From the human T2T-CHM13v2.0 reference genome, Homo sapiens: a DNA stretch of 64,000 nucleotides. The first letter of the stretch is position 1. The number at the start of each line of letters is the position of its first letter. The notes below the pieces were generated by a model. It was not told the DNA's origin and ran no database searches. It saw only the letters and a list, made by a program, of their open reading frames with translations. Of this stretch, positions 59,614 to 64,000 are shown one piece after another. The stretch lies in NCBI RefSeq assembly GCF_009914755.1, contig NC_060930.1; one strand, given 5' to 3'. The position numbers were made by a program, and so were the translations under genes.

Positions 59614-60517
59614 TAGTGGTATCTCATTGTAGTTTTGATTCACATTTCCCTAATTATTACTGATACTGAGCATTTTTTCATGTGCTTATTGGCCATTTGT
59701 ATGTCTTCTTTGGATGTATGTCTAAGTCCTTCGATCATGTTTGAACTGATTTGTTTCTTTCATAGTTGAGTTTTAGGAATTCTCTATATATTCTGCATAT
59801 TAATACCTTATGAGATACATAATTTGCAAATATTTTCTCGCATTCTATAGGTTGCCTGTTTACTCAGTTGTTAGTGTCTTTTGAAGCACAAAATGTTTTA
59901 AATTTTATGGAGTCTGATTTGCATATCTCTTCTTTTGTTGACTGTGCTTATGGTGTCATATCCAAGAAATTATTGGCAAGTCCAATCTCATAAAGGTTTT
60001 GCCCTACATTTTCTCCTAAAAGTTTTATTATTTTAGGTCTTACATTTAGGTATTTGACCAATTTTCAGTTAATTTTTGTACACAGTATTAGGTAAGGGTC
60101 CAATTTCACTCTTGCATGTGTTTATCCAACTTTTTCCAGCACCATTTGTTGGAAAGACTGTCCTTTATCCACTGAATGGTCTTGGTACCTTTGTCAAAAG
60201 TCATTTGATCACATATGTGGTGATACATTTGCACAATTTCTATTATATTCCATTGATCTACATGTCTTTTTTATGCCAGTACCACACTGCTTTGATTAGA
60301 GTAGCTTTGTCATAAGTTTTAAAATCTGAAAATGTGAGTCTTCCAGCTTCGATTTTCTCTCTCAAAATTGTTTTGGCTACTCGGGTTCCCTTGAGATTCC
60401 ATATGAATTATAGGATGGGTTTTTCTATTTCTGCAAGAAACATCATTGTATTTTGATAAGAATAACATTGAATCTGTAGATTGCTTTAGGTAATATTGGC
60501 ATTTTAACAATATTAAG

Positions 60518-60902
60518 GCTCGCGCCCAGCGCTCTCCAGCCGGGGTGGCGGCGGCGGTGGCGGTGGCGGCGGCAGCGGCGGCAGCGGCGGGGGAGGGGTG
60601 CGGCAGGGGAGGGGAGGAGGCCTGGCCCCGCGGTCGCAGCCGCCACCGCCCGCCCCGACCTCCCGGACCGCCGCGGGGCCACGGGCCGGCGCCCCGGATT
60701 CGCACTCCGTATTAGCCACGGCTGGGCCGCGCGTATATTTGCCTTCCCTCCATGATCTCCAACACTATCCGATAAAGTAGAAGCAACTGAGGTACCGTGA
60801 AAGAGAAAGGAGCTGGAACTGAGAAAAAGCAGAGAAACTGAAAGGCCAACGTGGGAGACAAAGAAGAGCCTGAAAGAGCCAAATCTTACCTTCTGGACCA
60901 TG
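60518..60902 (+). pseudogene. 5'-transduced host mRNA leader (CpG-island 5'UTR exon(s) ending in ATG); donor gene not identified
   Basis: Lies inside the TSDs; neither SVA nor L1; GGC-rich and CpG-dense; ends ...GGACCATG at the SVA acceptor. Confidence 0.75.
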
Positions 60903-61120
60903 ACGGGGTTTCGCTGTGTTGGCCGGGCTGGTCTCCAGCTCCTGACCGCGAGTGATCCGCCAGCCTCGGCCTCCCGAGGTGCTGGGATTGCAGACGGAGT
61001 CTCGTTCACTCAGTGCTCAATGGTGCCCAGGCTGGAGTGCAGTGGCATGATCTCGGCTCGCTACAACCTCCACCTCCCAGCCGCCTGCCTTGGCCTCCCA
61101 AAGTGCCGAGATTGCAGCCT

Positions 61121-61880
61121 CTGCCCGGCCGCCACCCCGTCTGGGAAGTGAGGAGCGTCTCCGCCTGACCGCCCATCGTCTGGGATGTGAGGAGCCCCTC
61201 TGCCTGGCTGCCCAGTCTGGAAAGTGAGGAGCGTCTCTGCCCGGCCGCCATCCCATCTAGGAAGTGAGGAGCGCCTCTTCCCAGCCGCCATCACATCTGG
61301 GAAGTGAGGAGCATCTCTGCCCAGCCGCCCATCGTCTGAGATGTGGGGAGCACCTCTGCCCTGCCGCCCCGTCCGGGATGTGAGGAGCGTCTCTGCCCGG
61401 CCGCCCCGTCTGAGAAGTGAGGAGACCCTCTGCCCGGCAACCGCCCCGTCTGAGAAGTGAGGAGCCCCTCCGCCCAGCAGCCGCCCTGTCTGAGAAGTGA
61501 GGAGCCCCTCCGCCCAGCAGCCACCCCATCTGGGAAGTGAGGAGCGTCTCCACCTGGCAGCCACCTCGTCCGGGAGGGAGGTGGGGGGGTCAGCCCCCCG
61601 CCCGGCCAGCCACCCCATCCGGCAGGTGAGGGGTGCCTCTGCCTGGCCGCCCCTACTGGGAAGTGAGGAGCCCCTCTGCCCGGCCAGCCACCCCGTCCGG
61701 GAGGGAGGTGGGGGGGTCAGCCCCCCGCCCGGCCAGCTGCCCCGTCCGGGAGGGAGGTGGGGGGGTCAGCCCCCCACCCAGCCAGCCGCCCCATCCGGGA
61801 AGTGAGGGGCGCCTCTGCCCGGCCGCCCCTACTGGGAAGTGAGGAACCCCTCTGCCCGGCCACCACCCCGTCTGGGAGGT
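61121..61880 (+). repeat. SVA VNTR (~35-50-bp GC-rich units)
   Basis: Repeated ctctgcccggccgccccgtctgagaagtgaggag units. Confidence 0.95.
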
Positions 61881-64000
61881 GTACCCAACAGCTCATTGAG
61901 AACGGGCCATGATGACAATGGCAGTTTTGTGGAATAGAAAGGGGGGAAAGGTGGGGAAAAGATTGAGAAATCGGATGGTTGCCGTGTCTGTGTAGAAAGA
62001 GGTAGACATGGGAGACTTTTCATTTTGTTCTGTACTAAGAAAAATTCTTCTGCCTTGGGATCCTGTTGATCGGTGACCTTACCCCCAACCCCGTGCTCTC
62101 TGAAACATGTGCTGTATCCTCTCAGGGTTGAATGGATTAAGGGCGGTACAAGATGTGCTTTGTTAAACAGATGCTTGAAGGCAGCATGCTCCTTAAGAGT
62201 CATCACCACTCCCTAATCTCAAGTACCCAGGGACACAAACACTGTGGAAGGCCGCAGGGTCCTCTGCCTAGGAAAACCAGAGACCTTTGTTCACTTGTTT
62301 ATCTGCTGACCTTCCCTCCACTATTGTCCTGTGACCCTGCCAAATCCCCCTCTGCGAGAAACACCCAAGAATGATCAATAAAAAAAAAAAAAAAAAAAAC
62401 AAAACAATATTAAGTCTTCCAATTAATAAATGTGGAATATATTTCAATTTATTTATGTTTTCTTAAATTTGTCTTTCAGTAATATTTTGTAGTTTTCATT
62501 GAAGAAGCCTTTTGTCTCCTTGGTTAAGTCCTAAGTATTTTTTTTCTTTCCAGTGCTACTGTCAATTGAATTGCTTTCATAATTTTGTTTTCAGATTGCT
62601 TATTATTAGTGTCTAAAAATGTTAACTAGATTTTGTGTGTTAACTTTGTATGCTGCTACTTAGGTAATTTCATTTATTAGTTATTGCAGGGGTTTTTTGG
62701 TGAAATTTTGGGGTTTTCTAGATGTAAGATCATATTACCTGTGAACAGAGATCATTTCAGTTCTTCTTTTACAACATGGATGCCTTTTCTTTTTTTTTTT
62801 TTTTTTTTTTTTTTTGGTATAATTGCCCTGACTAGGATTTTCAGCACTATGTTGAATAGAAGAGGGGTGAGTGGCATCTTGCCTTCTTCCTGATTTTGGA
62901 AAAAAAGCTTTCAGTCTTTCACGACTGAATATGTTTGTTGTGTGCTTTCCACATAAGGCTTTTATTACGTTGAGCTAGTTTCCTTCTATTCCAGTTTATT
63001 GAGTGTTTTTTTTTTTATCATTAAGGGGTGTTGAATTTTGTCAAATGCTTTTTCTGTATCATTTGAGATAATCACGTGATTTTCTTCCCTTTCATTCTGT
63101 TAATGTAGTGTATTACATTGATTACTTTTTGTATGTTGAACCACTGTTGCATTCCGGGAATAAATACCCTTTGGTCATGGTCTATAATATTTTTAACATA
63201 ACATTGAGTTTGGTTTGCTAGTATTTTGTTGAGGATTTTTGAATCAATGTTGATAAGGGATATTGTTATGTAGTTTTCTTTTCTTGTAGTGTATTTGTGT
63301 CACTTTGGTATCAGTGTAATGGTAGCATCATAGAATGAATTACGAAGTATTCTTTCCCCTTCCCTTCTTTGAAAAGTTTGAGAAGGACCGGTATTAGTTC
63401 CTTAAATGTTTGACAGAAATCACAGTGAAACCATCTGGTCCAAGGCTTTTGCTTTCTGGGATATTTTTAGTTACTGGTTGAATCTCCTTACTAGCTACAG
63501 GTCTATTCAGACATTCTATTTCTTCATGATTTTGTCTTGGTAGGTTATATATTTCTAGGAATTTACCCATTTTATCTAGGATATTCAATTTTTTGGCATT
63601 CAATTATTCATAGTACCCTCTTATAATCCTTTTTTATTTCTATAGTCAGTAGTAATGTCTCCATTTTTATTTCTTATTTTAGTATTTTGAGTCTTCTCTT
63701 TTGTTATTAGTCCATCTAGCAAAGTTTTGTAAATTTTTGTTGATCTTTTCAAAGAGTTAACTTTTGTTTTCATTAATTTTCTCTATTGTCTCTAGTATAT
63801 ATTTTGTCTATCTTTAATCTTTTTATTCTCTTTCTTCTGCTATCTTTGGGTTTAATTTGTTCTTATTTTTCCAGTTCCTTAACTTGTAAAATTAGGTTGT
63901 TGATTTGAGATCGTTCTTGCTTTTTAATGTTCCCTTTGGCCATTGCTTTCACTGGTCACATAGGTTTTGGTGGGTTGTATTTTCATTTTCATTCATCTTT

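What the first reader, a model, noticed from the sequence alone, without database searches (positions are those of the whole stretch)
60506..62414. Host-mRNA/SVA chimeric retrotransposon: exon-trapping 5' transduction that is not MAST2/SVA_F1
Seen: one 12-bp TSD (AACAATATTAAG) encloses 385 bp of non-repeat sequence plus an SVA that lacks its hexamer and the start of its Alu-like domain. The flanking L1 resumes exactly, so the whole unit inserted as one event. The join reads ...GGACCATG|ACGGGGTTTCGC. Established (from memory): the SVA consensus reads ...TTTTTTTGGTGGAG|ACGGGG here, an antisense-Alu-type 3' splice site. SVA_F1 instead joins MAST2 exon 1 at the downstream CCCAG|CCGCC site, which is intact here (61076-61085). 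Inference: an intronic SVA_D trapped a host gene's first exon(s) by splicing, and L1 machinery retrotransposed the chimeric mRNA. It may be a singleton or part of a transduction group. 5'-transducing SVAs are a known class, and I cannot tell whether this one has been described.
Basis: partly seen in the sequence, partly recalled or inferred. Interest (0 to 1): 0.9.

Follow-up and report, generated by a model that had tools for sequence, protein, structure and literature searches.

The report
SVA retrotransposon carrying trapped NAA38 exons
A human-specific SVA jumping element on chromosome 6 carries at its front three spliced leader exons of the chromosome 17 gene NAA38, a clean but ordinary case of a mobile element picking up host exons by splicing before it was copied.

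Summary
A 12-bp duplication (AACAATATTAAG, 60506-60517 and 62403-62414) encloses a 385-bp non-repeat leader and an SVA that lacks its hexamer and about the first 169 nt of its Alu-like region.

The leader is three spliced exons from chr17, minus strand. They lie 9-28 kb upstream of the NAA38 coding exon, next to a CHD-type gene. Each exon has AG/GT borders at the source.

On the SVA side the join falls exactly after the AG of TTTTTTTGGTGGAG|ACGGGG, which is AG in 28 of 29 other SVA copies. Exon trapping followed by L1-mediated retrotransposition is therefore well supported.

- No SVA lies in 90 kb around the source in this assembly, so the source copy is missing.
- The three-exon leader occurs only here.
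- Two other SVAs (chr8, chr10) carry exons 1-2 of the same gene, joined to a different acceptor on a different SVA subfamily. The same promoter was therefore captured at least twice.
- Damert 2018 lists this copy as hs_SVA_D6c with no ape orthologue.

The class has been known since 2009. The two 2009 papers are not held, so I could not check whether this copy is already listed. Interest is modest.

The parts
60506..60517 (+). 5' target-site duplication AACAATATTAAG. It is preceded by TTTT, so the bottom strand reads TGTT/AA, close to the L1 endonuclease consensus TTTT/AA.
   Evidence: D7; consensus named in PMC4859970 (passages seen)
60518..60733 (+). Leader exon 1 (216 nt, GC 0.83, CpG o/e 0.97). 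It is a copy of chr17:7790757-7790497 (minus) and starts flush with the source. The GGC repeat is short and interrupted here, against a pure (GGC)29 at the source. There are 8 substitutions in the 145 nt after the repeat.
60734..60834 (+). Leader exon 2 (101 nt), 100% identical to chr17:7788663-7788563 (minus). At the source it is bordered by tttcag and gtaggg.
60835..60902 (+). Leader exon 3 (68 nt), 100% identical to chr17:7771884-7771817 (minus). At the source it is bordered by ttcag and GTAAGG. It ends in ATG, which would be in frame with the NAA38 coding exon.
60903..61116 (+). 3' part of the SVA Alu-like region (214 nt), starting right after the position of the AG acceptor. It is 98-99% identical to 39 other SVA copies. 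It contains the two further acceptor-like sites: CCCAG|GCTGGAGTG (61031-61044, cut between 61035 and 61036; used by the chr8/chr10 copies) and CCCAG|CCGCC (61076-61085).
61117..61881 (+). SVA VNTR (period about 37-40 nt, about 19 units)
61882..62376 (+). SINE-R. Listed as hs_SVA_D6c, hg19 chr6:131123955-131124451. It is 97.8% identical to a consensus of 20 other SVA copies.
62377..62402 (+). AATAAA signal running into the A-tail (A20 C AA)
62403..62414 (+). 3' target-site duplication AACAATATTAAG

Best explanation
This is an exon-trapping 5' transduction.

1. An SVA_D copy (hs_SVA_D6c type) once sat in sense orientation (minus strand) in the roughly 9.3-kb intron of chr17 between leader exon 3 (chr17:7771817) and the NAA38 coding exon (chr17:7762524).
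2. Transcription started at the GC-rich promoter that lies head-to-head with the neighbouring CHD-type gene.
3. Exons 1, 2 and 3 were spliced normally. The exon 3 donor (GTAAGG) was then joined to the cryptic acceptor TTTTTTTGGTGGAG|ACGGGG in the SVA Alu-like region instead of to the NAA38 exon.
4. The RNA was polyadenylated at the SVA's own AATAAA.
5. L1 proteins copied this chimeric RNA into an old antisense L1 on chr6 at a TGTT/AA site, giving a 12-bp duplication.

Shown here: the exon structure, the splice-site dinucleotides on both sides, the TSD, the tail and the continuity of the flank. Inferred: the position, and the former existence, of the source SVA, which is absent from this assembly.

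The same promoter was captured at least once more. SVAs on chr8 and chr10 carry exons 1-2 joined to a different acceptor (CCCAG|GCTGGAGTG) on an SVA body of another subfamily.
For: -: the leader matches chr17 in three pieces on one strand. Query positions 216-317 and 316-385 match at 100%.
- every piece is bordered by AG...GT at the source, and GTAAGG follows ...GGACCATG.
- AG precedes ACGGGG in 28 of 29 other SVA copies, behind a T-run.
- of the 14 genome sites matching [not A]G+ACGGGGTTTCGCTGTGTTGGCC, 13 are ordinary SVAs with GGTGGGG. Only this copy has foreign sequence there.
- an LSM-domain exon on the same strand at chr17:7762213-7762815 is identical over residues 28-89 to PDB 7mx2_C, 'N-alpha-acetyltransferase 38'. 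KDM6 GATA-like, Cyt-b5 and CHDNT/PHD/Chromo exons flank the locus.
- that exon starts cag|GAT in phase 0, so the terminal ATG of exon 3 is in frame with it.
- TSD, A-tail and contiguous flank.
- Damert 2018 supplements list this copy as hs_SVA_D6c without an ape orthologue.
- the chr8 and chr10 copies have their own TSDs and the junction ...AAGCAGAG|GCTGGAGTGCAG. About 18 SINE-R columns, including 3 gap columns, are shared by chr8 and chr10 against chr6 and the 20-copy consensus.
Against: - No SVA VNTR or SINE-R sequence lies in chr17:7712000-7801999 of this assembly. Only poly-A matches of 30 nt or less, a few sub-27-nt chance matches and Alu matches were found.
- No row naming NAA38, CYB5D1 or CHD3 occurs in the supplements of a study of 543 non-reference SVAs. 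The source is therefore unobserved.
- Exon 1 of the leader has 8 substitutions in 145 nt. Seven fall within 37 nt and six of those are transversions. Exons 2 and 3 have none in 169 nt. Simple copying of the present chr17 allele does not explain this.
- Whether this acceptor has been used by other leaders is unknown. The 15 sites with a non-G base before ACGGGG could not be fetched.
Confidence: 0.85

Rival explanations
1. Template switching: during target-primed reverse transcription, the L1 reverse transcriptase jumped from an ordinary SVA RNA onto an unrelated NAA38-upstream mRNA. The chimera would then have been made at the insertion site, and no intronic source SVA ever existed.
For: No source SVA is found at chr17. 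L1-made chimeras of this kind are described (PMC13174262, seen in search listings only).
Against: The switch would have to leave the SVA RNA exactly after an AG acceptor and land exactly on the last base of an internal exon that is followed by GTAAGG in the genome. The chr8/chr10 copies show a second exon-end-to-AG junction. Two such coincidences are unlikely without splicing.
Confidence: 0.05
2. One long-lived source: a single SVA in the chr17 gene produced all three copies (chr6, chr8, chr10) by alternative splicing, rather than two different source SVAs.
For: All three leaders start at the same promoter within about 30 nt of each other. Skipping of exon 3 together with a second acceptor would give the chr8/chr10 form.
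Against: The SINE-R of chr6 is only 92.4% and 93.6% identical to chr8 and chr10, while chr8 and chr10 are 96.8% alike. They share about 18 columns, including 3 gap columns, against chr6 and the consensus of 20 other copies. This looks like subfamily difference, not decay after insertion.
Confidence: 0.12
3. Trans-splicing or a lost rearranged haplotype: the SVA that supplied the body was never inside the chr17 gene as it is arranged today.
For: Absence of any SVA within 90 kb of the source.
Against: There is no positive evidence for it. Cis exon trapping by intronic SVAs is the documented route (PMC6139936 and PMC12593883, passages seen). Source elements are often not found (PMC9132208, passage seen).
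Confidence: 0.04
4. Plain read-through 5' transduction or an assembly artefact.
For: None beyond the presence of non-SVA sequence in front of the SVA.
Against: Introns of about 1.8 kb and 16.7 kb are missing from the leader. The same SINE-R is listed at the matching place in hg19. The TSD encloses the whole unit.
Confidence: 0.01

Closest known systems
SVA_F1 (MAST2 exon 1 - SVA_F; Damert 2009, Hancks 2009, Bantysh & Buzdin 2009, as summarised in PMC6139936 and PMC12593883)
   Same: The hexamer and the front of the Alu-like region are replaced by a GC-rich first exon of a host gene, joined by splicing to an AG in the Alu-like region and mobilised by L1.
   Different: The host is the NAA38-upstream transcript on chr17, not MAST2. 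There are three exons instead of one. The acceptor lies further upstream (AG|ACGGGG), so 214 nt of the Alu-like region are kept and the CCCAG|CCGCC site is internal. The body is SVA_D (hs_SVA_D6c), not F. There is one copy with this leader, against the 84 quoted for F1.
Chimpanzee pt_SVA_D6 (STK40 exon 1 - SVA_D; PMC6139936)
   Same: An SVA_D body with a GC-rich first exon acquired by splicing. Many members carry further exons of other genes.
   Different: Different species, host gene and copy number (94 copies). Their junction carries an unexplained CATG tetranucleotide. The leader here also ends in CATG, but I could not test a link: the supplement's consensus sequences cover the SINE-R only.
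MRPS18A-, LINC02916- and UQCRC1-derived exonic 5' transductions in non-reference SVAs (PMC12593883)
   Same: Single SVA insertions whose 5' transduction begins at a host transcription start and was made by splicing.
   Different: MRPS18A uses the SVA_F1 acceptor. LINC02916 and UQCRC1 combine exon 1-2 splicing with intron read-through. Here three exons are fully spliced to another acceptor, and the copy is in the reference genomes.
The chr8 and chr10 SVAs with NAA38-upstream exons 1-2 (this genome: L003 = chr8, about 765.3-766.7 kb, minus strand; L002 = chr10:69148157-69149486)
   Same: Same host promoter and the same exons 1 and 2. Each copy has its own TSD and A-rich tail.
   Different: No exon 3. 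The junction is ...AAGCAGAG|GCTGGAGTGCAG, 133 nt further into the Alu-like region. The SVA body belongs to another subfamily. Their 5' ends lie about 10 and 29 nt further upstream.

Membership tests
L1-mobilised SVA insertion | Target-site duplication enclosing the whole unit | tested here: met
   12 of 12 identical at 60506-60517 and 62403-62414. The flank is contiguous in related repeat copies.
L1-mobilised SVA insertion | AATAAA and a poly(A) tail at the 3' end; endonuclease-like target | tested here: met
   AATAAA at 62377 and A20 C AA up to the TSD. The bottom strand reads TGTT/AA.
L1-mobilised SVA insertion | Alu-like, VNTR and SINE-R domains in order | tested here: met
   Alu-like region 98-99% identical to 39 other copies; VNTR; SINE-R.
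L1-mobilised SVA insertion | 5' (CCCTCT)n hexamer | tested here: not met
   No hexamer. The leader replaces it together with about 169 nt of the Alu-like region. This is expected for the spliced variant.
SVA 5' transduction by exon trapping | Non-SVA leader inside the TSD that maps elsewhere as exons with the introns removed | tested here: met
   Three pieces on chr17, minus strand, with AG/GT borders.
SVA 5' transduction by exon trapping | The leader ends at an exon's last base, with GT next in the source | tested here: met
   ...GGACCATG|gtaagg at chr17:7771817.
SVA 5' transduction by exon trapping | The SVA part begins right after an AG in canonical SVAs | tested here: met
   AG in 28 of 29 copies.
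SVA 5' transduction by exon trapping | A sense SVA in the downstream intron of the host gene (source element) | tested here: not met
   None in chr17:7712000-7801999 of this one assembly. Other haplotypes and apes could not be searched.
SVA_F1 | The leader is MAST2 exon 1 | tested here: not met
   The leader maps upstream of NAA38 on chr17.
SVA_F1 | [quoted passage not shown] | tested here: not met
   That site is internal and intact at 61076-61085. The join is at 60902|60903. The F1 site itself is recalled and was not tested.
SVA_D, subgroup hs_SVA_D6c | Diagnostic SINE-R substitutions as sorted by Damert 2018 | not tested
   I took the assignment from the paper's supplement row chr6:131123955-131124451 and did not re-derive it. 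The offset to this window is consistent.

The most novel reading that the evidence does not exclude
The GC-rich promoter upstream of NAA38, head-to-head with the CHD-type gene, is a recurrent SVA capture site. Two different SVA subfamilies were trapped by its transcripts through two different Alu-like acceptors, and both source copies have since vanished. This produced three promoter-carrying SVAs, an incipient counterpart of SVA_F1 and pt_SVA_D6 that has not been described as such.
Probability: 0.3. Interest if true: 0.45.

Novelty: new member of a known kind. Interest (0 to 1): 0.3.

Why it matters
This is a textbook-clean example of how SVAs shuffle host exons and pick up foreign promoters. 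The leader has three exons, every splice border is readable, and an acceptor other than the SVA_F1 one was used.

Capture of the same promoter by two SVA subfamilies suggests that some germline-active promoters are repeatedly exposed to SVA trapping. The copy carries a GC-rich first exon (GC 0.83, CpG o/e 0.97) into a gene-poor stretch of chr6, so it could act as a new promoter there. That was not tested.

None of this changes the known picture of SVA biology.

Tried and rejected
- **The 2009 papers:** Damert 2009 and Hancks 2009 are not held. I therefore could not check whether this copy, or the chr8/chr10 pair, is in their inventories. My recollection is that Damert 2009 made a genome-wide list of 5'-transduced SVAs.
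- **Literature searches:** (listings and abstract openings) returned no title or abstract opening linking SVA with NAA38, LSMD1 or CHD3. Term searches inside PMC6139936, PMC10681720 and PMC12593883 found 0 hits for NAA38, LSMD1 or CHD3, and a search of PMC9132208 found 0 for NAA38. The supplements of PMC12593883 gave 0 hits for NAA38, CYB5D1 or CHD3. PMC4859970 was searched only for exon-trapping and transduction terms.
- **Supplements of PMC10681720:** not seen, because paper reading closed.
- **Rfam scan:** only a weak antisense SRP/Alu match and chance hits.
- **Source SVA:** the 50-kb and then the 90-kb BLAST around the source found none.
- **Other leaders at this acceptor:** one pattern search gave 13 ordinary SVAs plus this copy. 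The second gave 15 sites that I could not fetch.
- **Cap-derived extra G:** I first read an untemplated G at the 5' end of the chr6 leader. This was wrong. The G belongs to the TSD and the leader starts flush with the source.
- **Chimpanzee CATG lead:** the 'CATG' in pt_SVA_D6 could not be tested, and I dropped it as unlikely because the copy here is human-specific and no AG precedes its CATG.
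Full report
**What is in the sequence**

The window holds AACAATATTAAG twice, at 60506-60517 and 62403-62414. Between the two copies lie:
- a 385-bp stretch that is not masked as repeat (60518-60902);
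- the 3' 214 nt of an SVA Alu-like region (60903-61116);
- a VNTR (61117-61881);
- a SINE-R (about 61882-62376);
- AATAAA at 62377 and an A-tail.

The sequence outside the duplication is an old, very abundant repeat (6032 first-look candidates, 76-83% identity). Five related copies were aligned. The two flanks are contiguous, apart from the 12-bp duplication, in L056, and nearly so in L055. L059 is roughly collinear. L057 and L058 gave little or no right-flank match. A weak reverse-transcriptase match on the minus strand at 63072-63299 (below Pfam's cut-off) fits an old antisense L1. The bottom strand at the nick reads TGTT/AA. The whole unit therefore went in as one L1-type insertion.

**Where the leader comes from**

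A search of the window's own genome places the leader on chr17, minus strand, in three pieces:

| Window | chr17 (minus strand) | Identity |
|---|---|---|
| 60518-60733 | 7790757-7790497 | 93%, with a change in repeat length |
| 60734-60834 | 7788663-7788563 | 100% |
| 60835-60902 | 7771884-7771817 | 100% |

At the source, exon 1 is followed by gtgggt. Exon 2 is bordered by tttcag and gtaggg. Exon 3 is bordered by ttcag and GTAAGG.

Pfam scans of open frames around the source found:
- a KDM6 GATA-like exon (+);
- an LSM-domain exon on the minus strand at chr17:7762213-7762815;
- a Cyt-b5 exon (+);
- CHDNT, two PHD and a Chromo exon (+) beyond exon 1.

The LSM exon is identical over residues 28-89 to PDB 7mx2 chain C, 'N-alpha-acetyltransferase 38'. 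The names KDM6B, CYB5D1 and CHD3 for the neighbours are recalled from the human map; the best PDB match of the PHD exon is CHD4.

The NAA38 exon starts cag|GAT in phase 0. The ATG that ends exon 3 would therefore read M-DSDGERED... in frame. I infer that exons 1-3 are the alternative 5' exons of an NAA38 isoform driven from the GC-rich region next to the CHD-type gene.

**The SVA side of the join**

In 29 other SVA copies fetched with the Alu-like region, the two bases before ACGGGGTTTCGC are AG in 28. The commonest context is TTTTTTTGGTGGAG, found in 19 of 29. This is a T-run followed by AG, as at a 3' splice site.

In 26 of the 29 copies with a recognisable hexamer, this point lies a median of 169 nt after the hexamer.

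A genome-wide pattern search for a base other than A two positions before ACGGGG gave 14 sites. Thirteen are ordinary SVAs reading GGTGGGG, and only the chr6 copy has foreign sequence there. A second pattern, with a non-G base directly before ACGGGG, gave 15 sites that I could not fetch. I therefore cannot say whether other leaders use this acceptor.

**Source element**

BLAST of the VNTR and SINE-R against chr17:7712000-7801999 gave only poly-A matches of 30 nt or less and a few chance matches under 27 nt. The earlier 50-kb search gave only Alu matches of 73-92% identity to the Alu-like part.

The supplements of a study of 543 non-reference SVAs contain no NAA38, CYB5D1 or CHD3. The source SVA is thus unobserved. 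It may have been a low-frequency copy that was lost.

**Sister copies**

A probe of exons 2-3 has only five places in the genome: this copy, the two chr17 exons, and SVAs on chr8 and chr10. Exon 3 is found only on chr17 and here.

The chr10 copy (L002, TSD ATAAATTACCTAGTCTC, unit 1296 bp) and the chr8 copy (L003, TSD about AAAAAAAT[C/A]TTTTCT) carry exons 1-2. They are joined as ...AAGCAGAG|GCTGGAGTGCAG, at the CCCAG| site that is internal in the chr6 copy (cut between 61035 and 61036). Their 5' ends reach about 10 and 29 nt further upstream in the chr17 sequence.

SINE-R identities:

| Comparison | Identity |
|---|---|
| chr8 vs chr10 | 96.8% |
| chr8 vs chr6 | 92.4% |
| chr10 vs chr6 | 93.6% |

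About 18 columns, including 3 gap columns, are shared by chr8 and chr10 against chr6 and a consensus of 20 other copies. Those 20 were the loci, out of 29, in which both SINE-R anchors lay inside the locus.

The chr6 copy keeps Alu-like sequence that the others lack, and it has another body type. It cannot descend from them. The same promoter was trapped at least twice.

**Literature**

Damert 2018 (PMC6139936; abstract, passages and supplements 1-4 searched, supplement 2 part 1 read):
- It lists 'hs_SVA_D6c chr6:131123955-131124451' (hg19). This fits the SINE-R here with a constant offset.
- The row has no ape orthologue entry.
- 34 of the 35 D6c elements are counted as human-specific, and the one shared element is on chr1.
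- It says nothing about this leader.

PMC12593883 (passages) describes single exonic 5' transductions made by splicing.

The two founding papers of 2009 are not held, and paper reading closed. Whether this copy is already listed there remains open. From memory, Damert 2009 compiled a genome-wide inventory, so it may well be.

**Unexplained**

Exon 1 of the chr6 leader differs from chr17 at 8 of the 145 positions after the repeat. Seven of these fall within 37 nt, and six of the seven are transversions. Exons 2-3 are identical over 169 nt, and the chr8 and chr10 copies match chr17 in that stretch. The cause could be a lost chr17 allele, errors of reverse transcription in very GC-rich RNA, or later local mutation.

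**Verdict**

This is a well-documented member of a known class. The added point is that the same host promoter was captured by two SVA lineages.

Noticed in passing
L002 (chr10:69148157-69149486, + strand) and L003 (chr8, about 765.3-766.7 kb, minus strand): Two further SVAs carry exons 1-2 of the same chr17 leader. They are spliced to CCCAG|GCTGGAGTG on an SVA body of a different subfamily, and each has its own TSD.
   Followed up: partly
window 60688-60725 (last part of leader exon 1): Seven substitutions against chr17 fall within 37 nt, six of them transversions. Exons 2-3 are identical to the source, and the chr8/chr10 copies match chr17 in this stretch.
   Followed up: partly
chr17:7790497-7790757 (L013) versus window 60547-60590: The source exon 1 holds a pure (GGC)29 run. 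All three retrocopies have short, interrupted versions; the longest pure run in the chr6 copy is 3 units.
   Followed up: partly
window 60900-61151: The ATG that ends exon 3 would be in frame with the NAA38 coding exon at the source. Here it opens an 83-codon frame running through the Alu-like region into the first VNTR unit. The frame had no Pfam match.
   Followed up: partly
L060-L073 (13 SVA copies on other chromosomes): A set of SVAs reads GTGTTTTTTTGGTGGGG|ACGGGG, with GG in place of the AG used as acceptor here. That lineage lacks this cryptic splice site.
   Followed up: no
L002 and L003, 5' ends: Both sister copies begin with a G where chr17 has C. This is compatible with a cap-derived extra G or with a mutation. 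The chr6 copy starts flush with the source.
   Followed up: no
PMC6139936, section 10: Chimpanzee pt_SVA_D6 has an unexplained CATG between STK40 exon 1 and the SVA, which the author suggests is a remnant of an earlier transduction. The leader here also ends in CATG. A link could not be tested and seems unlikely.
   Followed up: partly
window 60900-61081, minus strand: Weak Rfam match to Metazoa_SRP (20.9 bits against a gathering score of 70). This is the expected echo of the antisense-Alu origin of the SVA Alu-like region.
   Followed up: no
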